The notes below the pieces were generated by a model, which saw nothing but the letters and a program-made list of their open reading frames with translations, was not told the origin of the DNA and made no database searches. DNA of 64,000 nt from a virus, in the IMG/VR virus record IMGVR_UViG_3300017963_000231, positions 22,829 through 86,828 of that record, one strand, 5' to 3'. A program made the position numbers and the translations under genes. Below are positions 4,603-14,786 of this stretch, one piece after another (positions within the stretch are counted from its first letter, which is position 1; each line of letters opens with the position of its first letter).

Positions 4603-5514
4603 ATGGCATTAGGCGATTTGGTAGCAGGGATGGATGTTGAGGAGGAAGAGGCTCCTCGTGATGTTGGTTCAATTTTTCTTTCCGATCTCACTAATTCAAT
4701 TCAAGTAGCTCAACCGTTGGGTCGGTTGGTCAATTACCATGTAACTGAGATTCGTGATATGTGCCCACGCCGGGCGGCTTGGGTCCGTTGGTTTTCGTCT
4801 CAAGGGGCGGCATGGAAGCGGCAGACTCCGGCGGCTTTGCGGGTGACTTTTGATATTGGTCATTTTGCCCATGATTGGGTGACAAGTAAGTATCTTCGGA
4901 ATATGAATTCTGAGCGGTTTTATTTTGATATTGATAATACGGAGGTTCCCGTTACGCTTGACGTGGAAGGGGTCACTTTGGCCGGAAGCATGGATGCGTT
5001 GATCCGAGATGTGAGAGAGGAAGAGACGATTGGGTTAGAATTGAAAACAATCAGTGTAGATCAATTTAATAAAATGAGGGTTGCCAAAATCGATCACCGG
5101 TTTCAGGTTTATCTTTACATGCTCATGACTGGCATTAGGAAGTTCTTAATACTTTATATCGCGAAGCAATATCCCAAGGAATCATCTCCATTTAAGGTGT
5201 TTACAATTGATTTGGAGGATCCAAAAATTCTGAAAGAGTACGAGCAAGCTAAAAGGGAGATGGAAACCAAGTTGTTTTCTATTGGCGAGTGGCTTTTGAG
5301 TTCGGTTACATTTCCTGATAAGAAGAAGCAATGCAAGGATGAGTTTTGCCATGAGGCCATAAATTGTTTTTTTCAGGACGTGTGTTACCGAAAGAAAAAT
5401 TTGGTTGGTTTGTGTGTGGAATCTAAGGCGGCTACTATGGAACTTAAGGCGAAAGATATTGATCTTAGCCAATATGTGGAGGGGGGAGGATGGCCTTTCT
5501 TGGATTGGATTTAA
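4603..5514 (+). CDS. Cas4-like PD-(D/E)xK exonuclease
   Basis: N-terminal CPR, G..AH, GSMD, ELKT, Q...YM and a C-terminal Cys cluster. Confidence 0.8.
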   Translation: MALGDLVAGMDVEEEEAPRDVGSIFLSDLTNSIQVAQPLGRLVNYHVTEIRDMCPRRAAWVRWFSSQGAAWKRQTPAALRVTFDIGHFAHDWVTSKYLRNMNSERFYFDIDNTEVPVTLDVEGVTLAGSMDALIRDVREEETIGLELKTISVDQFNKMRVAKIDHRFQVYLYMLMTGIRKFLILYIAKQYPKESSPFKVFTIDLEDPKILKEYEQAKREMETKLFSIGEWLLSSVTFPDKKKQCKDEFCHEAINCFFQDVCYRKKNLVGLCVESKAATMELKAKDIDLSQYVEGGGWPFLDWI

Positions 5515-6095
5515 GTCTCACGAGCACGGGAATTGTGATTCTCTCGAAGTCAGGGGCTCTTTTGCATAGTAGTGCTTATGGGTACGGGCTTAAGAAGGCC
5601 GGGACTGACGATGAGATTAAGCGACTCTTGGATATAACTAATCGAATTGAATCCGTTGTTTCTGAGTTTCCCATTGAGTGTGTAGGGATCGAGGATTATG
5701 CGTACCGGAGGGCGGGCAGTGGTTCTCAGATTACCCGTCAGGCTGAATTGACAGGCGTTGTCAAGACTACTCTTTATCAATACCGGCTCAAGATTTTCGT
5801 GGTCGGTATATCGCAAGGGAGGAAGATTACGTTTGAGTGCCCGGTTGGCGTGTCTAATGCCGAACGTAAAGAGGGCATGGACATAAAGACAAAAGTGATG
5901 GAGTTGGTTAAAACTAAATATGGGTTGGATTTTGAGACTACTGATGAAGCTGATGCTTTTGTTCTTGCGGAGGCAGTACGGAAGCTGATTGTTCCTGGAA
6001 ACCCGTCTCCAGAGGCATTGAAAGAGCTTCAGAAACTAGAGAGGCGGCAGAAGGGGGCTCCCATTATCAAGAAAGGAGGTAAGCGTGGCAAATAG
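5490..6095 (+). CDS. RuvC-like Holliday junction resolvase
   Basis: LGLDLSLTSTG, IED and DEADAFVLA acidic motifs. Confidence 0.88.
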   Translation: MAFLGLDLSLTSTGIVILSKSGALLHSSAYGYGLKKAGTDDEIKRLLDITNRIESVVSEFPIECVGIEDYAYRRAGSGSQITRQAELTGVVKTTLYQYRLKIFVVGISQGRKITFECPVGVSNAERKEGMDIKTKVMELVKTKYGLDFETTDEADAFVLAEAVRKLIVPGNPSPEALKELQKLERRQKGAPIIKKGGKRGK

Positions 6096-6384
6096 CGTTA
6101 CGGTATCGGGGATGGTAGTAACTCCCGTTCATGAATTGAAAACTCTTTTTGATCATGACTATTTGAATTTCCGTGTAAAAGCGGATGCGGGAAAGGGGTC
6201 GGATATTTTTGTGACGGTCAATGTTTATAGTTATACGCAAATTAAGCTGGCTAAGGATCGAGGACTTAAAAAAGGAGATAGGGTGTGGGTTCAAGGTGAA
6301 CTCATGGCACGCATGACAAATGATTCCGGGCATGACGTAATTGAGGTCCGGGCATTGCAGTTGGATCCAGTTAAGGAGGTTTGA
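6085..6384 (+). CDS. Single-stranded DNA-binding protein (OB fold)
   Basis: NSVTVSG...LKKGDRVWVQGEL pattern. Confidence 0.75.
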   Translation: MANSVTVSGMVVTPVHELKTLFDHDYLNFRVKADAGKGSDIFVTVNVYSYTQIKLAKDRGLKKGDRVWVQGELMARMTNDSGHDVIEVRALQLDPVKEV

Positions 6385-8188: not shown

Positions 8189-8377
8189 ATGGAATTCAAT
8201 AAGCACAACAATGACTTAGTACGTAGGTTAAAGGTTCGCAAGGAGGAGTTCGAGGAGGAGAAGGAGATGCTCCTGAATCATCCTGGCGTTACTGAGGAAG
8301 GGCTAAAAATCACTTTGGCTTGGTTGGATCCTATGCTTGAGGATCTGGAGAATAAAATCAGGGGGTTAGAGGGATGA
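8189..8377 (+). CDS. Small helical hypothetical protein
   Basis: RBS GGAGG before ATG 8189; ATGA coupling to the next gene. Confidence 0.65.
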   Translation: MEFNKHNNDLVRRLKVRKEEFEEEKEMLLNHPGVTEEGLKITLAWLDPMLEDLENKIRGLEG

Positions 8378-8898
8378 CGGGTGGCGGTGTAGTCAAGGAA
8401 AAGGTTTTCATTGAAAAGGTTTTCATTGTTCACATGATTGGAAATCCTACTGATTTTCATGGGAATAAGACTAATTTTCTCAATCTTGTGGAACGGGTTA
8501 AGAAGATTGATGAGGTTAGAGGGTCTAGTTTTGCAGATATCGTGGAGCATTGCATCAAAGTGAAGCAAAGTCTTATCGAATCACGGCATGGAGTGCCCAT
8601 TAATGGAGTTACGGTGGTAATGGCTCCAGGAATGGAGCATTTTGCCATTTCGATTTGTAGTGGGATGGATCAGTTTAGCAGGAAAGTAGGCCGTCTCTTG
8701 GCTTTGAATCGGTTGGCGAATAAATTTGGAGTTCTGACCATGCGACCTAAGAAACGGGTGTATTATGAAGGATATCTGATCCTGATGCCTCCGAATAACT
8801 TCTTGGCCGATGAGGCTACCAAAAGAATCAAAATTCCCGATATTCGGGAGGAGTTGGCGTGGCTGGGGGTGTGGGATGGAGAAGAATCAGGCCGTTGA
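8374..8898 (+). CDS. Hypothetical protein
   Basis: Coupled ORF. Confidence 0.7.
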   Translation: MTGGGVVKEKVFIEKVFIVHMIGNPTDFHGNKTNFLNLVERVKKIDEVRGSSFADIVEHCIKVKQSLIESRHGVPINGVTVVMAPGMEHFAISICSGMDQFSRKVGRLLALNRLANKFGVLTMRPKKRVYYEGYLILMPPNNFLADEATKRIKIPDIREELAWLGVWDGEESGR

Positions 8899-9082
8899 GA
8901 AGCAGTGTTGTTTTATTTGTGAGAAACCGTCGAATTGTCATTGGAAATGCGATTGGTTTGACGGTTATTTTGATTGCAGTGGTAAGGTTCCTTGTGGGTC
9001 GTGTCGAAAGTTTAAGCGGTGTGAACCTTTAATTAAGGTTTGTGTTGTAAGTGACGATAATAAGTCAGTTTTACCAATTTGA
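8876..9082 (+). CDS. Small Cys-rich (Zn-binding) protein
   Basis: CCFIC, CHWKC and CGSCRKFKRC. Confidence 0.55.
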   Translation: MEKNQAVEKQCCFICEKPSNCHWKCDWFDGYFDCSGKVPCGSCRKFKRCEPLIKVCVVSDDNKSVLPI

Positions 9083-9099
9083 AAAAGGAGGTCTAAGGA

Positions 9100-9876
9100 A
9101 TGAAAGAGGCTAAGGTAGGAATGATCGATCTCGGAAATACCGGGATGGATGTAGGGTCTGAGCTTTATGATATTTGGCGGGTGAAGATCAAACTTCGGAA
9201 TGTGGTTTACGGCGGGGTGCCCAAGGATCCGAAAATAATTCAGAAGTGGATTGATGAGAAGATCAAGAAGGCCATTAAGGCCGGGCATGACATCACGCCG
9301 GAAATCGCGGAGGAAGAGCGGAAAAGGATCATGGAGACTCTGAATCTGGATGAGGACTCTAAGTGGTGCGGGTTCAAGGATATCTATCAGGGCGAAGAGG
9401 TTGGGCCGTATCTGGACGGCTACAATTTCAAGGCGATGATCCGAGAAGGGGCTACTCAAACCGGAGCCATGCTCCTTCGGTTCTCAAATAACCGGGGACT
9501 TCGCCAGCATTATCAGCATGGGATGCATGTCAAGGCAGGGGACGGCAAAAGCGATATTATCAGGTTGGGTAAGGTGGATGGTCAAGAAGAGTTTGTGGGC
9601 CATGTCAAGACTCCTCAAGGCGAAAAATCCATCCTTTCTCGGCATGATTATGTGGGATCGAGGGAACTTGAATTCCAGGTTTGGAGCCTCGCGGTAGGTA
9701 TCCTGGATGATGAATTGTTGGCCACCATCTTGAAGGCTACTCAGGAGATTGGACTTGGGGCTTGCCGGTCCAGGGAGTTGAGCAAGTTCGATCTTGTGGA
9801 GATGGAGCGGATTCAGGTAGGGAAGATCGACCATTTTCTCAAGATGAAGGCCAAGAAAGGGAAAAAAGACGCATAA
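9100..9876 (+). CDS. Solo Cas7/RAMP-like RNA-binding protein
   Basis: N-terminal strand RVKIKLRNVVYGG, PYLDGYNFKAMIREGA (like the P.ipg.s.KG.lR motif of Cas7/Csm3) and C-terminal G-loop GLGACRSRELSKF; RBS AAGGAGG. Confidence 0.75.
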   Translation: MKEAKVGMIDLGNTGMDVGSELYDIWRVKIKLRNVVYGGVPKDPKIIQKWIDEKIKKAIKAGHDITPEIAEEERKRIMETLNLDEDSKWCGFKDIYQGEEVGPYLDGYNFKAMIREGATQTGAMLLRFSNNRGLRQHYQHGMHVKAGDGKSDIIRLGKVDGQEEFVGHVKTPQGEKSILSRHDYVGSRELEFQVWSLAVGILDDELLATILKATQEIGLGACRSRELSKFDLVEMERIQVGKIDHFLKMKAKKGKKDA

Positions 9877-9881
9877 TGTGC

Positions 9882-10000
9882 GGAGATTTTCCCACAAGGA
9901 GTATGGTTTTTTCAGGCGGATGATTTTAACGCTTTCGGGATCATTTTAGCGTGAGGGGATTCATTTCCGATTTTTGTGGATGATTGGGCTTCTTGTGGGA
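9882..10000 (+). repeat. Degenerate GGA-headed repeats with about 20-nt period
   Basis: GGA at 9898, 9918, 9938, 9957, 9978 and 9998, several followed by T(G/C)ATT. Confidence 0.5.
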
Positions 10001-10094
10001 AGTGGAGGGTCAACTTAGAGTTGACGGGAGTTATCGGCCCCTCCCGGCTGAGAATGACTTTGAAACGGCGGGGTTTCAGGGTAATTTGATCTTT

Positions 10095-10572
10095 GACAAT
10101 TCAGTGGGACAAGTCAGGCTAGATCAGTACAAATCATGGGGACTTATCTACTCTGTGCAATACTACTCAGTTCAAATCGAGAGGACTTTTCCTTGCGCTA
10201 CCTATCGGAACGGCAAGACTGATCCAGTCATCTCAACTTATATCAAATCGGAGCGACTTTGCGTTACCAGTCCACTCAGGTCGTTATGACTCATCGGATC
10301 ATCTCAACTCGTGTCTAGAGGACCAATCAGCTAGAGGCAAATCGGAACGTATCCATGGGACTAATCTAATCAAATCTGTTCTGAGAGACTACACTATACA
10401 ACGCACTACGAAACGGTATGACCACTCATGACGGAGCAAGGCGAAGCTATGCCCAGGGACTTATCTAATCAAATCTGTTCTGAGAGACTAGGCACTTCAT
10501 TACCTATCATTGTGACATATCAATTCGATTCCAGGGGACATATCAAACCGCTACTGATCGATACGGAGGGAC
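10095..10572 (+). repeat. Pentamer-periodic array: 15 units of GAC-(NNNNC)n-NNNNN plus a terminal GAC; candidate guide-RNA array
   Basis: All GAC-to-GAC distances equal 3+5k nt; 68 of 71 internal pentamers end in C (hand count). Confidence 0.92.
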
Positions 10573-10577
10573 AAAAT

Positions 10578-11165
10578 ATGAAATTAATGGTTTGCAATAA
10601 ATGCGGAGATGTGATTTTTCCTCGCGGGGAAGCGGGGATATGGAAGTGGTGTATTTGCGGAAACATTGGAGGCATGTACGAGGACGGGTTGAAGTTTCTT
10701 GTGGCGATTGACGATCCGGATTATGCTCGGGTTGTGGGGATCGATAACAATGTTCTCGTAGGGAACTGTGACTTAGGGGAGATATGGAAGCAAAAGCCGG
10801 GTGATCCAGCTTCCGGACGTAACCTGAAGGAGATATCCATTACCGAGGCCAGACGGGTTTACGGGTACTCTGGAGAGGCTTCGGATACTCTTGTGATCGA
10901 CTTGGCTAAGGTGGTAGGGGTAGTTCCATCTGATTCGAGCCCGTGCTTTTCGGAAATGGTGTTCCATCTTGTCATGAAGGCTGATCGTATTAATAGGGAG
11001 AGGCTCAGAGCTATCTTCCCTATTTATGTTCAAATGGTGGATAGATTCCAGCTTAAAGACGGGGTTATCGCTCATCCTCAGCATCCGGAGATGGGGTTTT
11101 ATGAGCCTTGCGGGGATAAGGGCTATCAGTGGCGATATCCTTTAGATACGGAGATAAGCAAGTAA
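10578..11165 (+). CDS. Zn-finger-containing hypothetical protein
   Basis: RBS GGAGG at the array end; CNKC...CICG. Confidence 0.75.
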   Translation: MKLMVCNKCGDVIFPRGEAGIWKWCICGNIGGMYEDGLKFLVAIDDPDYARVVGIDNNVLVGNCDLGEIWKQKPGDPASGRNLKEISITEARRVYGYSGEASDTLVIDLAKVVGVVPSDSSPCFSEMVFHLVMKADRINRERLRAIFPIYVQMVDRFQLKDGVIAHPQHPEMGFYEPCGDKGYQWRYPLDTEISK

Positions 11166-11169
11166 AAAC

Positions 11170-11196
11170 GGGGGCTTCGGCCCCCTAAATTTTTTT
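11170..11196 (+). terminator. Intrinsic terminator
   Basis: GGGGGC-TTCG-GCCCCC followed by a T-rich tract. Confidence 0.75.
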
Positions 11197-11235
11197 CATT
11201 TTTTTCTTGACAAACGGTTTTATAGGTGTTATACT
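11188..11235 (+). promoter_or_regulatory. Repeated strong promoter (copy 1)
   Basis: T tracts, then TTGACA(11207)-17 nt-TATACT. Confidence 0.88.
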
Positions 11236-11302
11236 AGATTTTACAATCGAATAACGGGAAACAAGCAAGGCAAGACGTTAAGGAAATAAGGAGGGGAGCA
11301 AA

Positions 11303-11473
11303 ATGAAAAGCATCAAGGAATTAGAGATAGACATCATCGAGGCGGAAGAGGCCATCGAGATGGAAAATAACCCTGAAATGATCCAGTTTTGGGAAGAGGA
11401 AATCAAAGACACAAAGGCGTTGATCGATGAGATCCAGTGGGCTCTTCACATGGTTCCGGCGGTCACAAAGTAA
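11303..11473 (+). CDS. Small acidic protein (56 aa, not in the ORF track)
   Basis: RBS AAGGAGG; MKSIKELEIDII...PAVTK. Confidence 0.7.
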   Translation: MKSIKELEIDIIEAEEAIEMENNPEMIQFWEEEIKDTKALIDEIQWALHMVPAVTK

Positions 11474-11487
11474 GGAGGGAAAGTAGG

Positions 11488-12330
11488 ATGGCTGAAGCTA
11501 AGGCAAGTGAGAAAAGGTTGGTTCCGGCCCTAATCGATGGGTATGTGGACTTTCCTTGGATGAAAATCCTGGATGATGGTATCGAGCATAATGATCGAGT
11601 TTTGCTCGTTGGCCATTGCGGGGTTGGAAAGACCAGTTCCGTTGAGCAATTGGCGGCTCGCGGGAATTATGAGTGCCGTCGGGTCAATCTGAATGGGCAA
11701 ACTACCATTTCTGATATGGTGGGCCAGTGGATTGCCAAGGACGGTGAGACGGTGTGGGTTGATGGGATCGTTCCTCAAGCGATGAAGAACGGCCAGTGGC
11801 TCATTCTGGATGAGATCGATTTCGCGATGCCGGAGATTCTGGCAGTGCTCCATTCCGTGCTGGAAGATGATGGATTCCTTGTTCTGGCGGAAAAAGATGC
11901 TGAGGTTGTACGGGCTCATAAGGATTTCAGGGTAATTGCTACTGCCAATAGCATTGGGGCCGATGCCGTGGATCGGGGCCTTTATCAGGGAACTCAGGTG
12001 ATGAATGAGGCGTTTCTTGATCGATGGTCTTGTGTACTCAAGATTGGATGGCCCCCGCAAGAGATTGAGGCTTCCATCCTGGAAAAGCGGGTCAAGGGGC
12101 TCCCTACTTCCGTGGCGGTCCTGATTGTCCGGATTGCTACGGACCTTCGAGGGGCTTTGGAGAAAAATGAGATCATGACCACGTTTTCTCCTCGAAAGTG
12201 CCTCCAGTTGGCGGAAAAGGCCGTGAGGTATGGGGAGGTCATGCGGGCGGCTCAGGTAACAATTTTCAATAAGCAACCCGATGAGGAACGCAAGGTTTTT
12301 GAGGCAGTGTTTCAGCGGTGGTTGGGATAA
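11488..12330 (+). CDS. MoxR/CbbQ/CobS-type AAA+ ATPase
   Basis: GHCGVGKT, LILDEIDFA, IATAN, YQGTQVMNEAFLDRW and FSPR. Confidence 0.9.
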   Translation: MAEAKASEKRLVPALIDGYVDFPWMKILDDGIEHNDRVLLVGHCGVGKTSSVEQLAARGNYECRRVNLNGQTTISDMVGQWIAKDGETVWVDGIVPQAMKNGQWLILDEIDFAMPEILAVLHSVLEDDGFLVLAEKDAEVVRAHKDFRVIATANSIGADAVDRGLYQGTQVMNEAFLDRWSCVLKIGWPPQEIEASILEKRVKGLPTSVAVLIVRIATDLRGALEKNEIMTTFSPRKCLQLAEKAVRYGEVMRAAQVTIFNKQPDEERKVFEAVFQRWLG

Positions 12331-12336
12331 GGAGGG

Positions 12337-12792
12337 GTGATCATGACTACCAAGGTAATAGAGGATAAAGGTGTGGCCGTTTTGAGGCAAGGTAAAGAGA
12401 CTTACAAGGTTCTGATCGATCCAAATAACAATGAGGTCAAAGCGGTCCACATTTCCGGTCCCGGCATGGAAAAGACCTTCAGTAAAGGTACTCGGAGTGA
12501 TCTTTATTCGGCTATCAAACTGGCGAAAGACGTGGTGGCTGAGAAGGTTAAGGACGGATGGGTAAGTAAGGAAACCAATTTTGGTTCCCTTGTGGAAGAT
12601 GTCTACAATATGGGCCTTGATAACGTATCAAAAGCCTCTAAAAAGAAAGGTAAAAAAGGGAAATACGTTATCGAGGAAGTGAAAGACAATGTTCCTCCTC
12701 CCCCTCCCTCGATCAAGGATCTTTTCAAGATGACTCCAGTGGATATCAGTAAGCTGGCGAAAAGTGAGCTTGAAAAAGTGGCTCGGAAGTAA
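12337..12792 (+). CDS. Hypothetical protein
   Basis: RBS AAGGAGG; Lys-rich. Confidence 0.7.
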   Translation: MIMTTKVIEDKGVAVLRQGKETYKVLIDPNNNEVKAVHISGPGMEKTFSKGTRSDLYSAIKLAKDVVAEKVKDGWVSKETNFGSLVEDVYNMGLDNVSKASKKKGKKGKYVIEEVKDNVPPPPPSIKDLFKMTPVDISKLAKSELEKVARK

Positions 12793-12801
12793 GAAAAATT
12801 C

Positions 12802-12830
12802 TTGACAAACTATTTTATAGGTGCTATACT
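12802..12830 (+). promoter_or_regulatory. Repeated strong promoter (copy 2)
   Basis: TTGACA-17 nt-TATACT. Confidence 0.85.
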
Positions 12831-12863
12831 AGGTTTTATCGTTAAGTCAAGGAGGGAAACAAA

Positions 12864-14786
12864 ATGGAATCGGCCTTAGCAAAAGTAGCGAAAATCATGG
12901 CAAGGGAATACGGGTTGAATGTCCGGTTCACCGGGTCCGGGGCTTGCGTTAACCTTAAAACCAAGGAGATGCAACTTCCGGCCCTGGATGATCCGGTCAT
13001 TTTTGAGACCATTTCCGGGTATTTGGACCATGAGGTTGCTCATGTAAGGTTTACGGATATCGTTCCGTCAATTAAGGATTCTCTGACCATGGATCTTTTC
13101 CGGGTGTTGGAGGATGTGAGGGTTGATCGGGATATGGGCAATCTTTACACCGGCTCCCATAAGAATATCGGGCGGACTCGGAAGGCCGTGTATGAGGCTC
13201 TTTTCACGGAAGCCAATGACCTAAATGAGATGTTCTGGATGGATATTCTGGAAATGACTTCGGGCCGGATGGAGTTCGATGAAATGGGTCCGATGGCTCA
13301 GGAAGCCGTTCTCAAAGCCCTTGATCTTTTCATGGGTCTGGATGAGATAAAGACCACGGCTGATTGTGTAAGCCTTTGCGAGAAGATTGCCAAGCGGTGG
13401 AGGGATACCGATGCCAATCCTACTCCTCAGCCGTCTCCTGGAGGCTCTGAGGAGGAGCAAGAGGGGGATAGTGATGGTTCCTCTGATTCTGGCGGTCAGG
13501 GGGATTCTGAGGGCGACTCAAAGGAAGGATCTAAGGGGGGATCAAAGAAAAAAGGCAAGAAGGGCTCGAAAAAAGAGGGAGAGGAAGATAAGGACGGTGA
13601 GGGCAAGAAAAAAGGCAAGGGAAAAAAGAAGGGCGAGGGCAAGAAAAAAGATAAGAAGGGCGATAAAACGGGAGATGTAGACTCTCCTGATGCGAATAGC
13701 AACAAGCATGCTCCGAAGGATGGAGGAACGGAAGCGGCGGGTATCCGGCGGGAGGATGTGGATATCGCCATTATTCGGGATTACGATAAACTGGATTTGA
13801 TCGATCCTGAAAAAGCGTTGGATCACGGGATCAATAAGATCATAAACGCTCAGGTCAAGAAGTGTGCGAATGATGTTCATATCCCTTTTACCACGGAATA
13901 TGATGTGGTTAAAGACGATTCAAAATCCCGGAACACGATAAAAGAGAAAGCCATAAGGGAGGAAGTTAAAAGTACCGTTGGAGTGTTGATCAGGCGGCTT
14001 CAGATGGTTCTTTTGGCTCGGGATCGGGCAAGGGATCGGTTTGAGCTTGATCGGGGTAGGATCGATTCGAGGAGGCTTCATCAGCTTATCCATAAAACGT
14101 CTAATCGAGTGTTTAAGACTCGGGTAGAGGCCGAAACCGAGAGTACCGCCGTTTATCTCTTAGTTGATTGCTCGGGTTCGATGGGAGGAAAGAAAATTAT
14201 AGCGGCTCAGAAGGCGGCTTGCGCGTTTTCAGCTTGTCTCGATCAGCTTGGGATTGTGCATGAAGTAGGTAGTTTTCAGTGTGTCAAGTCTGAGGAGATA
14301 AGAAATGCGTTCGAACAATACATTGAGGCTAACGGCATGGATTGTTATGATTCTCCGTTTAATAGGTATTATGAAATCCTTTCTCATAGCATTGTAAAGC
14401 GATTTGATCAGCCTTTTGCGCAAGGGGCTTTCGCGAATTTAATGGCGGGGTGTAACAATTGTGACGGTGAATCCGTGAGGGTAGCGGCTCGTCTTTTGGC
14501 TCAGAGGCCGGAAAAACGTAAGATTCTTATGGTGTTTTCGGACGGGATGCCTAGTTGTTATTCGGACCATGATTTGCTCCATAAGGATCTTAAAAAGGCC
14601 GTGAAGGAAATCATGGATGCCGGGATTGAGACTATTGGGGTCGGGATCAGGACCAGTGCTCCAAAGATGTTTTATCCTGATTGGATTCTGATCGATGATA
14701 TAACGACTCTTCCTACGGAAGTGATCAGTCAGCTTGAGAAGTTACTCTTTAATGGGATGATCGGGAAAAAGCGGAGGGTAGCGTGA
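12864..14786 (+). CDS. CobT-like protein: N-terminal HEXXH domain, charged linker, C-terminal VWA domain
   Basis: DHEVAH...LEDVRV; DCSGSM MIDAS motif; MVFSDGMP. Confidence 0.88.
   Translation: MESALAKVAKIMAREYGLNVRFTGSGACVNLKTKEMQLPALDDPVIFETISGYLDHEVAHVRFTDIVPSIKDSLTMDLFRVLEDVRVDRDMGNLYTGSHKNIGRTRKAVYEALFTEANDLNEMFWMDILEMTSGRMEFDEMGPMAQEAVLKALDLFMGLDEIKTTADCVSLCEKIAKRWRDTDANPTPQPSPGGSEEEQEGDSDGSSDSGGQGDSEGDSKEGSKGGSKKKGKKGSKKEGEEDKDGEGKKKGKGKKKGEGKKKDKKGDKTGDVDSPDANSNKHAPKDGGTEAAGIRREDVDIAIIRDYDKLDLIDPEKALDHGINKIINAQVKKCANDVHIPFTTEYDVVKDDSKSRNTIKEKAIREEVKSTVGVLIRRLQMVLLARDRARDRFELDRGRIDSRRLHQLIHKTSNRVFKTRVEAETESTAVYLLVDCSGSMGGKKIIAAQKAACAFSACLDQLGIVHEVGSFQCVKSEEIRNAFEQYIEANGMDCYDSPFNRYYEILSHSIVKRFDQPFAQGAFANLMAGCNNCDGESVRVAARLLAQRPEKRKILMVFSDGMPSCYSDHDLLHKDLKKAVKEIMDAGIETIGVGIRTSAPKMFYPDWILIDDITTLPTEVISQLEKLLFNGMIGKKRRVA

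What the first reader, a model, noticed from the sequence alone, without database searches (positions are those of the whole stretch)
10095..10572. Array grammar: GAC + (NNNNC)n + purine-rich pentamer, unit lengths always 3+5k
Seen: GAC occurs at 10095, 10108, 10141, 10184, 10217, 10255, 10288, 10321, 10359, 10387, 10420, 10458, 10486, 10514, 10537 and 10570. Spacings are 13, 33, 43, 33, 38, 33, 33, 38, 28, 33, 38, 28, 28, 23 and 33. Example unit: GAC ttatc tactc tgtgc aatac tactc agttc aaatc gagag. By hand count, 68 of 71 internal pentamers end in C; their 4th base is T 43, A 14, G 10 and C 1. Only 1 of 15 last pentamers ends in C. Inference: the last pentamer plus GAC forms an 8-nt junction (atgggGAC, tgagaGAC, cagggGAC), the same length as a class 1 crRNA 5' handle, and may be a processing or loading signal. 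There is no long conserved repeat, so CRISPR finders would probably miss it.
Basis: seen in the sequence. Interest (0 to 1): 0.92.

Follow-up and report, generated by a model that had tools for sequence, protein, structure and literature searches.

The report
Phage VIPR guide-RNA array, C-anchored type
The five-base-periodic stretch is real and is most likely the guide-RNA array of a VIPR system, a CRISPR-related phage system first described in 2026, written here in an unusual form with one fixed C per five bases and GAC between short guides.

Summary
The array is unique in the 86.8-kb phage genome and far beyond shuffles.

It is not an orphan. The gene just upstream (9100-9876) encodes a small RAMP protein. 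Its AlphaFold model (pLDDT 92) matches Cas7-type chains such as Cmr4 and Csm3. Its family profile matches the family of the phage SUSP1 Vipr protein (hhalign 96%, E 3.6e-9).

In 11 of 11 assessable loci, protein identity down to 28%, the same C-phased, GAC-punctuated array follows the gene on the same strand.

This is therefore a VIPR system (bioRxiv 10.64898/2026.04.26.720920). It belongs to a branch with one fixed base per pentamer, short head-to-tail units and no 3' tail.

Still open: which strand makes the RNA (I favour the gene strand, about 3:1), how it is processed, and what it targets. All my target searches were negative.

This scan has already noted the same C-anchored, GAC-punctuated form in several other phage genomes.

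The parts
9100..9876 (+). vipr-like gene (P0001, 258 aa): a small RAMP protein with a glycine-rich loop, the probable RNA-binding partner of the array
   Evidence: No Pfam or PHROG hit. AlphaFold2 with a 102-sequence alignment gives pLDDT 92.2 and pTM 0.85. In Foldseek against PDB, the best chains are from type III Cmr/Csm, type VII and type I effector complexes and have Cas7-like lengths; the best is 6s6b_I at E 1.6e-6, and 74 chains have E<=0.001. BFVD hits include 'Cas system-associated RAMP superfamily protein' at E 3.9e-11. The family profile A2 against the SUSP1-type Vipr profile A3 gives hhalign 96.1%, E 3.6e-9, over 136 columns. The family holds 537 representative clusters at E<=1e-3.
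9877..10105 (+). Leader between the gene and the array: hairpins, then the conserved motif TCTTTGACAA at 10090-10099
   Evidence: In an alignment with L001, L003 and L004, TCTTTGA(C/A)AA is the only strongly conserved block. One terminator-like hairpin lies on the + strand at 10057-10082; no sigma-70-like promoter was found on either strand. The fold of 9990-10105 is no more stable than shuffles (z -0.20).
10106..10572 (+).
   Evidence: Positions 1-3 of the pentamer carry 1.76-1.88 bits, position 4 is T-biased (0.60), and position 5 is C in 96%. The units at 10359 and 10458 are near-identical copies.
10578..11165 (+). P0002 (195 aa, CxxC...CxC at the N-terminus): the next gene and a candidate accessory gene. 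Its ribosome-binding site GGAGG is the last purine-rich pentamer of the array
   Evidence: The start at 10578 is supported by homologues in L001, L003 and L004 that align from residue 1. No Pfam or PHROG hit. The ESM Atlas gives only a weak lead to DUF7695 (score 0.82). It is not found next to the distant homologues.
8374..8898 (+). P0003 (174 aa): upstream neighbour, conserved in synteny only in the close relatives; role unknown
   Evidence: tblastn hits just upstream of the vipr homologue in L001-L005, at 29-39% identity. No family hit. No upstream neighbour is shared across the distant loci.

Best explanation
The stretch is the guide-RNA (vrRNA) array of a VIPR system, and the gene at 9100-9876 encodes its Vipr-type RAMP protein.

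Proposed mechanism, by analogy with the studied type II system of phage SUSP1 (inferred for this locus). The array is transcribed, most likely from the + strand together with its neighbours. One Vipr protomer binds each pentamer and holds the invariant C, and partly the base before it, in a pocket. The variable bases are left exposed. Each GAC-delimited unit of about 4-8 pentamers, roughly one turn of the published six-subunit helix, then acts as a short guide. The guide directs the filament to double-stranded DNA of a rival phage, another mobile element or a host gene, and silences it.

GAC, the only motif constant across the whole family, would be the full-strength binding or nucleation site that opens each unit, and perhaps a processing mark.

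Shown here: the grammar, its uniqueness, the RAMP fold, homology to the Vipr family, and the conserved gene-array linkage. Inferred: transcription, strand, filament formation, guiding and targets.
For: Observation.

Protein: the high-confidence model matches Cas7-type RAMPs, and the family profile matches the SUSP1-type Vipr family. The SUSP1 gene used as reference lies between YNNGG repeat tracts on its own strand.

Linkage: the array follows the homologue on the same strand in the window, in 3 of 3 metagenome loci with enough downstream DNA, in Microcystis phage Mae-JY09 (28% identity), and in 6 of 6 IMG/VR loci. Those 6 loci were found through a protein motif alone, independently of the array. 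Parser scores exceed all 20 shuffles in all 6 arrays tested.

Hypervariability: most units are lineage-specific. Only 5 unit pairs reach 70% identity, against about 0.2 expected.

Literature: VIPR has pentanucleotide repeats with one Vipr protomer per repeat, seven types, alternative repeats NNNGG, YNNNG and NNNNG, and tail-less 'staggered' arrays (sections read). Non-canonical GAC/NN and CAC/NN repeats are also reported (passages).

For the + strand:
- In 7 distant loci the array starts between -46 and +65 nt of the vipr stop codon.
- In the window it ends 5 nt before the next start codon, and 36 and 53 nt before it in L003 and L001.
- All credible genes lie on the + strand.
- The G-loop residues that read G1 and G2 in SUSP1 Vipr (D177, W178) are A/S in 94 of 102 members and non-aromatic in the five commonest residues shown, which cover 79 of 102.
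- R179, which holds the pyrimidine Y3, is kept in 100 of 102. This fits a fixed C occupying the Y3 place.
Against: No RNA data exist for this stretch, so transcription, strand and ends are unproven.

No promoter-like site was found on either strand.

No target was found. Own-genome searches matched shuffled controls under three readings. Sixteen decodings against the genome plus five related loci also matched controls.

The A2 profile finds nothing directly in the SUSP1 genome, and hhalign against the single SUSP1 protein gives only 28% probability. Homology therefore rests on the profile-profile result.

Read on the minus strand, the arrays spell NNNNG, YNNNG and NNNGG, exactly the three alternative repeats the VIPR paper lists. 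This favours the opposite strand.

Units of 4-8 pentamers would give only 8-16 read bases under the published two-bases-per-repeat code, which is little specificity.

Fold z-scores of the sense RNA are inconsistent across 8 loci, from +2.12 to -1.84.

No accessory (vap) gene could be identified.
Confidence: 0.8

Rival explanations
1. Same VIPR system, but the guide RNA is made from the minus strand, antisense to the vipr gene. Its repeats then read NNNNG with GTC punctuation, and G remains the anchored base as in the published systems.
For: On the minus strand the window reads GNNNN, the L003/L004 arrays read G-T-NNN, and the high-GC relatives read GGNNN. These match the three alternative repeats named in the VIPR paper's methods: NNNNG, YNNNG, NNNGG. 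On that strand the conserved motif and hairpins at 9990-10105 would lie 3' of the repeat tract, where published vrRNAs carry a tail. No sense-strand promoter was found.
Against: In SUSP1 the repeats lie on the same strand as vipr: 8 matches on the gene strand and 0 on the other. In 7 distant loci the array abuts or overlaps the vipr stop codon, and in the window it abuts the next gene's ribosome-binding site. An antisense transcript would therefore need a promoter inside a coding region and would run into vipr. None was found. The G-binding G-loop residues of SUSP1 Vipr are absent from this family. The published non-canonical repeats GAC/NN and CAC/NN end in C.
Confidence: 0.22
2. The array is not a set of guides. 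It could be a scaffold or decoy RNA coated by the RAMP protein, for example to protect a long untranslated leader or to sequester a host factor. Or it could be a DNA-level binding array for that protein.
For: No target was found under any decoding. The units are short. Only the grammar, not the content, is shared between most lineages. The sense RNA is C-rich and G-poor, and folds more weakly than the antisense in 8 of 8 loci.
Against: Positions 1-3 are near maximal entropy while position 5 is fixed, the signature of stored specificity in the published systems. A few units are kept between phages whose proteins are only 66-70% identical. Arrays vary from 279 nt to 2.8 kb, like guide libraries. 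The homologous system is shown experimentally to be RNA-guided.
Confidence: 0.07
3. A degenerate class 1 CRISPR-like array. The 8-nt junction would be a crRNA 5' handle cut by a Cas6-like activity, and the units would pair contiguously with RNA or DNA targets.
For: The protein's best solved-structure matches are Cas7 chains of type III, VII and I complexes. Family members give weak Pfam hits to Cas6_C (6 of 102) and RAMPs (4 of 102). The junction is 8 nt in the window and its close relatives.
Against: The period is 5 nt, not the 6 nt of Cas7 backbones (recalled textbook value; paraphrased). There is no repeat of CRISPR length. Among the ten neighbouring genes tested, none is Cas1, Cas2, Cas5, Cas6 or a large subunit. 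In distant relatives the junction step is 3 nt. Contiguous matching found nothing.
Confidence: 0.04
4. A chance or compositional pattern with no function.
For: None beyond the fact that high-GC, C-rich tracts raise parser scores in shuffles: the shuffle mean is 27-84 for L006, L008 and L013.
Against: The observed scores exceed every shuffle in all six arrays tested. The pattern recurs next to the same gene family in 11 of 11 assessable loci.
Confidence: 0.005

Closest known systems
Type II VIPR system of Escherichia phage SUSP1 (Vipr + vap1 + vrRNAs). Sources: bioRxiv 10.64898/2026.04.26.720920, Results, Discussion, part 1 of Methods and passages read; and 10.64898/2026.04.26.720927, outline and one Results section read
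   Same: It is phage-encoded. It has a lone small RAMP protein with a G-loop, related by profile comparison. An adjacent non-coding array has strict 5-nt periodicity, with fixed and hypervariable positions, on the same strand as the gene. There is no CRISPR repeat and no adaptation genes.
   Different: One fixed base per pentamer (C on the gene strand) instead of GGY, and three high-entropy positions instead of two. Units hold 3-8 repeats joined head to tail with GAC, instead of 9-16 repeats with a leader and a structured 3' tail of about 30 nt. The G-reading residues D177 and W178 are replaced. The A2 profile does not detect the SUSP1 protein directly. No vap1 homologue was recognised.
Other VIPR types and non-canonical arrays: NNNGG, YNNNG and NNNNG repeats and 'staggered' arrays (10.64898/2026.04.26.720920, methods and the fig. 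S17/S18 legends only); GAC/NN, CAC/NN, WGT/NN and TGH/NN repeats (10.64898/2026.10.21.760802, passages only)
   Same: The repeat scaffold is degenerate or altered, the guides are tail-less and contiguous, and a Vipr-like fold lies nearby. GAC appears as a fixed trinucleotide.
   Different: The texts I could read do not describe GAC as punctuation between runs of NNNNC pentamers, a 3-nt or 8-nt phase step, or arrays of up to about 2.8 kb. If they do, nothing here is new except the instance.
Class 1 CRISPR effector backbones (Cas7: Csm3, Cmr4, type VII Cas7, type I Cas7) with crRNA
   Same: The protein fold matches. One protomer binds per RNA segment and a base is periodically held out of the helix (as described for Vipr). 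The units are about as long as a spacer, 23-43 nt.
   Different: 5-nt rather than 6-nt register. No long repeat, and no Cas5, Cas6, large-subunit or adaptation genes among the neighbours tested. The fixed bases lie inside the 'spacer'.
TIGR-Tas systems (recalled; named together with VIPR in 10.64898/2026.10.21.760802, passages read)
   Same: A phage-borne, non-CRISPR tandem guide array with short conserved parts.
   Different: TIGR arrays have an 18-nt entropy period and, as I recall, a Nop-domain protein. Here the period is 5 nt, and Pfam finds no domain in the protein.

Membership tests
VIPR (Vipr protein + vrRNA) | A small stand-alone RAMP protein with an RRM core and a glycine-rich loop, homologous to characterised Vipr | tested here: met
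   pLDDT 92 model. Cas7-type structural matches at E down to 1.6e-6. The G-loop G-h-G-A-x-R-S...G-K-F is conserved: G218 in 101 of 102, G220 in 99 of 102, R223 in 100 of 102. hhalign against the SUSP1-type family gives 96.1%, E 3.6e-9. The thumb was not examined separately. P0001 is 258 aa, longer than the published ~20 kDa.
VIPR (Vipr protein + vrRNA) | Non-CRISPR context, mostly in viruses | tested here: met
   The record is a single 86.8-kb virus contig. No tandem repeat is reported at the array. Among 10 neighbouring proteins, the only CRISPR-linked label is a phage-type PD-(D/E)XK exonuclease PHROG. The G-loop motif pattern gives 6 hits in IMG/VR and 0 in 185,579 species genomes.
VIPR (Vipr protein + vrRNA) | A tract of tandem pentanucleotide repeats, with fixed and hypervariable positions, next to vipr | tested here: met
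   The same holds in 10 other loci.
VIPR (Vipr protein + vrRNA) | Repeat consensus GGY/NN, or a listed alternative (NNNGG, YNNNG, NNNNG) | tested here: inconclusive
   On the gene strand the repeat is NNN-h-C, which is not listed. On the opposite strand it reads NNNNG, which is listed. The strand is unknown.
VIPR (Vipr protein + vrRNA) | vrRNA has 9-16 repeats capped by a conserved, structured 3' tail (type II) | tested here: not met
   Units have 3-8 pentamers and are joined by 3-8 nt with no tail. The paper itself reports tail-less 'staggered' arrays in other types, so this excludes type II architecture, not VIPR membership.
VIPR (Vipr protein + vrRNA) | The RNA is expressed and bound by Vipr | not testable with these tools
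   No listed holder of the stretch is an RNA run. Complex prediction does not take RNA.
VIPR (Vipr protein + vrRNA) | Variable bases match natural DNA targets under a gapped (1-nt skip) rule | tested here: inconclusive
   56 units were tested under 16 decodings against the genome and 5 related loci. Observed matches equalled controls: for positions 1-2 with skip 1, the mean was 0.874 against 0.870. No large database could be searched with decoded patterns.
VIPR (Vipr protein + vrRNA) | An accessory vap gene beside vipr | tested here: inconclusive
   P0003 and P0002 flank the module in the close relatives only. There is no shared neighbour in distant loci and no family assignment.
Class 1 CRISPR-Cas | Direct repeats of more than 20 nt separating spacers, with cas operon genes (Cas5, Cas6, large subunit, Cas1-Cas2) | tested here: not met
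   There is no repeat at the array. The only constant motif is GAC. No such genes are among the 10 neighbours tested.
TIGR-Tas | A fixed-length repeat unit with an 18-nt period and a Nop-domain protein | tested here: not met
   Unit lengths vary from 13 to 43 nt in steps of 5. P0001 has no Pfam domain. The Nop-domain criterion is recalled; the 18-nt period comes.

The most novel reading that the evidence does not exclude
This branch of VIPR uses a different RNA grip and a denser code than the published one. The guide would be sense-strand RNA anchored by a single C per pentamer, sitting in the conserved pyrimidine pocket, with the two G pockets lost. Three or four bases per repeat would then be read instead of two. 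A full GAC site would nucleate and delimit filaments of about one helical turn. That would make these the shortest natural RAMP guides, packed head to tail in libraries of up to about 100 units.
Probability: 0.3. Interest if true: 0.7.

Novelty: new member of a known kind. Interest (0 to 1): 0.45.

Why it matters
VIPR systems were described only in 2026, as a possible ancestor of CRISPR and as a very small programmable DNA binder.

This locus and its ten relatives show a branch in which the protein-RNA grip appears to have been rewritten: one fixed C, the G-reading residues replaced, and guides cut down to short GAC-opened units.

If the strand and the reading rule of this branch were worked out, two things would follow. 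It would show how far the gapped code can vary. It would also give a second, independent rule for programmable recognition.

As it stands, this is a well-supported new example of a published kind, not a new kind.

Tried and rejected
Rfam found no family in the window or in 11 loci, and no tRNAs were found.

A fixed-window period-5 count missed the array because of the phase steps.

blastn of 9000-12000 against phages found no match.

A single-sequence AlphaFold run was useless (pLDDT 35).

The search for related loci found nothing in viral contigs with P0002, A1, P0010 or P0011.

The Pfam scan of family members and the PDB sequence profile gave only weak RAMP hints: Cas6_C in 6 of 102, and Csm4 at E 0.019.

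Cluster look-up gave no names for 10 family members.

Own-genome target searches were at control level for contiguous matching, first 4 of 5 bases, and first 3 of 5 bases. So were the 16 decodings against the genome plus L001-L005.

No RNA holder was listed for the stretch.

Laying contigs of four DNA runs left 10265-10566 without cover, so it says nothing about array variation.

Promoter and terminator scans were at shuffle level.

The leader fold was not special (z -0.20).

The sense-strand array RNA folds worse than shuffles in the window (z +2.1). This did not hold across 8 loci (z from -1.84 to +2.12), so I do not use it for the strand question.

A full-text search for a recalled 8-nt crRNA handle motif returned only unrelated papers. 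The resemblance of some junctions to crRNA handles therefore remains a recollection and is not used.

The third VIPR preprint (10.64898/2026.10.15.759431) held none of the six terms I searched.

Paper searches found nothing relevant.

Figures S17 and S18 and data S4 of the first VIPR paper, and fig. S10 of 10.64898/2026.10.21.760802, may already depict this form.
Full report
**1. The observation**

The region was read directly and parsed by script.
- GAC stands at all 16 claimed positions. One further GAC at 10430 lies in phase inside a pentamer.
- All 15 claimed spacings are of the form 3+5k.
68 of 71 internal pentamers end in C. Their fourth base is T 43, A 14, G 10, C 1. Only 1 of 15 last pentamers ends in C.
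- Taking all 17 GACs, 15 of 16 spacings equal 3 mod 5, against a mean of 1.31 and a maximum of 9 in 2000 shuffles.
- A parser that follows the C phase and pays a penalty for any step other than 5 places the array at 10106-10564. It has 86 marks, 96.5% of them C, with 72 steps of 5, 11 of 8 and 2 of 3.
- The parser score is 46.0, against 4.2 on average and 6.5 at most in 20 shuffles, and 5.0 when G is followed instead.
- Nothing like it exists elsewhere in the 86,828-bp, single-contig virus genome that holds the window.
- Tandem Repeats Finder and Rfam see nothing there.

**2. Context**
- Nearly all long reading frames lie on the + strand, and G exceeds C on that strand throughout the window.
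- The array fills most of a 700-nt gap between a 258-aa gene (9100-9876, P0001) and a 195-aa gene (10578-11165, P0002). The Shine-Dalgarno sequence of P0002 is the array's last purine-rich pentamer.
- Neither protein, nor the upstream P0003, has a Pfam or PHROG family.
- Further neighbours are ordinary phage genes: a PD-(D/E)XK exonuclease, a RuvC-like resolvase, a MoxR-type AAA ATPase and a CobT-like VWA protein.

**3. The protein**
- P0001 has six close relatives at 66-70% identity. A profile of the seven finds 537 representative clusters at E<=1e-3.
- With a 102-sequence alignment (A2), AlphaFold2 gives a confident model: pLDDT 92.2, pTM 0.85. The earlier single-sequence run failed.
- In Foldseek against PDB, the best matches are all chains of type III Cmr/Csm, type VII and type I effector complexes, with Cas7-like lengths. 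The best has E 1.6e-6 and TM about 0.4-0.5, and 74 chains have E<=0.001.
- Among predicted viral structures, the best named hit is a 'Cas system-associated RAMP superfamily protein'.
- Weak sequence signals agree: Cas6_C in 6 of 102 members, RAMPs in 4 of 102, and Csm4 at E 0.019 in PDB, all through the glycine-rich loop.

**4. The gene and the array travel together**
- Five metagenome loci encode close relatives. L001, L003 and L004 have enough downstream DNA, and each carries the same grammar right after the gene. L002 and L005 end too early to tell.
- The only hit in 50,697 phage records is Microcystis phage Mae-JY09 (28% identity, E 3e-14). It has a C-phased array with GAC steps directly after the gene.
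- A DNA pattern back-translated from the G-loop motif alone found six IMG/VR contigs. All six have the array starting at the end of the gene. Arrays reach 2.8 kb, and L010 has a second array 5 kb away.
- That makes 11 of 11 assessable loci, always downstream and on the gene's strand.
- Parser scores exceeded all 20 shuffles in each of the six arrays tested, including the C-rich ones.
- The same motif pattern found nothing in one genome for each of 185,579 prokaryote species. This branch therefore seems to live in free phages.

**5. Grammar across the family**
- Positions 1-3 of the pentamer are near maximal entropy, about 1.75-2.0 bits. Position 4 follows base composition and avoids G. Position 5 is C in 92-100%.
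- The phase step almost always ends in GAC in the short arrays: 12 of 13 in the window and 16 of 18 in L001. The share is lower in the long, more irregular ones: 18 of 71 in L008 and 32 of 97 in L013.
- The bases before GAC are lineage-specific: GgGAC here, GAGAC in L001 and L003, TGCGAC in L009 and L013, TTCGAC in L010 and L012, CCGAC in Mae-JY09.
- In the close relatives the step is 8 nt. In the distant ones it is 3 nt.
- The commonest unit has 5-6 C-ending pentamers.
- Unit content is mostly private to each phage. Only 5 pairs of units between the four close arrays reach 70% identity at positions 1-4, against about 0.2 expected from shuffles, and none involves the window.

**6. What it is**

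A literature search led to bioRxiv 10.64898/2026.04.26.720920. I read its Results, Discussion, the first part of Methods, and passages including supplementary legends. It describes VIPR systems:
- a phage-encoded, stand-alone ancestral RAMP (Vipr);
- vrRNAs made of tandem pentanucleotide repeats (YNNGG);
- the two variable bases of each repeat pair with double-stranded DNA, skipping every third target base;
- the system silences rival mobile elements;
- there are seven types, alternative repeats NNNGG, YNNNG and NNNNG, and tail-less 'staggered' arrays.

The companion structure paper (outline and one section read) shows one protomer per repeat in a helix of six subunits per turn. G1 is read by H17 and D177, G2 by R138 and W178, and the pyrimidine Y3 sits in a pocket with R179.

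A third paper (passages) reports 21 clusters of non-canonical repeats, including GAC/NN and CAC/NN.

I tested membership directly.
- In phage SUSP1 the YNNGG tracts flank a 195-aa gene on its own strand.
- My family profile does not find that gene by itself, and the match to the single protein is weak (28%).
- A 40-sequence profile of its family matches my family at 96.1% probability, E 3.6e-9, over 136 columns that include the G-loop.

So the locus is a VIPR system of a divergent branch.

**7. Which strand?**

This stays open, because no RNA run holds the stretch.

For the gene (+) strand:
- The SUSP1 repeats are on the gene strand.
- In seven distant loci the array begins between -46 and +65 nt of the stop codon.
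- In the window, L003 and L001 it ends 5, 36 and 53 nt before the next start codon. This leaves no room for separate or antisense promoters.
- In the aligned G-loop, D177 is replaced by A or S in 94 of 102 members. At W178 none of the five commonest residues shown (79 of 102 members) is aromatic. R179 is kept in 100 of 102. This fits a single fixed pyrimidine in the Y3 place and loss of the two G pockets.
- The published non-canonical GAC/NN motif ends in C.

For the minus strand:
- Read there, the arrays spell exactly the three alternative repeats listed in the paper.
- The conserved TCTTTGACAA motif with its hairpins would then be a 3' tail.

Promoter scans and folding statistics decided nothing. 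I put the + strand at about 3 to 1.

**8. Targets**
- Searches of the phage's own genome matched shuffled controls. The paper also reports no self-targets.
- Sixteen decodings of 56 units against the genome plus five related loci also matched controls.
- With only 4-8 repeats per unit, the published two-bases-per-repeat rule would give 8-16 read bases. This is one reason to suspect that this branch reads more bases per repeat. That is inference only.

**9. Verdict**

The specific 8-nt-handle idea is not established.

The system belongs to a kind published in 2026. This scan has already flagged the same C-anchored, GAC-punctuated form in several other phages. I checked those unverified notes only in the sense that my own loci show the same grammar.

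I file it as a new member of a known kind. The main texts I could read do not describe GAC punctuation or a C anchor. The closed supplements might.

Noticed in passing
window 10090-10099; L001, L003 and L004 leaders: TCTTTGA(C/A)AA is the only strongly conserved block between the vipr stop and the array in four phages whose leaders are otherwise diverged. It contains a TTGACA-like hexamer, but no consistent -10 element at a fixed distance.
   Followed up: partly
L001 about 5960-6165; L003 about 1700-1925: L001 and L003 share an extra conserved block of about 200 nt between that motif and the array, ending in a second, similar motif. The window and L004 lack it. It could be a further non-coding RNA or a regulatory insert.
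   Followed up: no
window 10359-10386 and 10458-10485: Two units are near-identical copies, differing at one base, so the array grows at least partly by unit duplication.
   Followed up: partly
L010 13945-14542: A second C-phased array lies about 5 kb downstream of the first in this IMG/VR phage, away from the vipr gene.
   Followed up: no
L001 units 9 and 12; L004 units 16 and 32: Two of the few units shared between phages are also among the few with a pentamer that does not end in C (GGGAA, GGAAA). They may be kept for a special reason, or may carry a small hairpin.
   Followed up: no
whole window: There is a strong and uniform G-over-C skew on the + strand (0.11-0.33 in every 2-kb bin), with essentially all long ORFs on that strand. 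The array is the local exception: C 24%, G 21%.
   Followed up: no
window 11437-14786: A MoxR-type AAA ATPase (AAA_5, E 1.6e-24) and a CobT-like VWA protein (E 5.3e-26) lie just downstream and are syntenic in L001 and L003. No link to the array was shown.
   Followed up: no
window 4603-6095: A PD-(D/E)XK exonuclease, in a PHROG labelled 'CRISPR/Cas system associated' (Cas4-like), and a RuvC-like resolvase lie 3.5 kb upstream. They are probably the phage recombination module, not part of the system.
   Followed up: no
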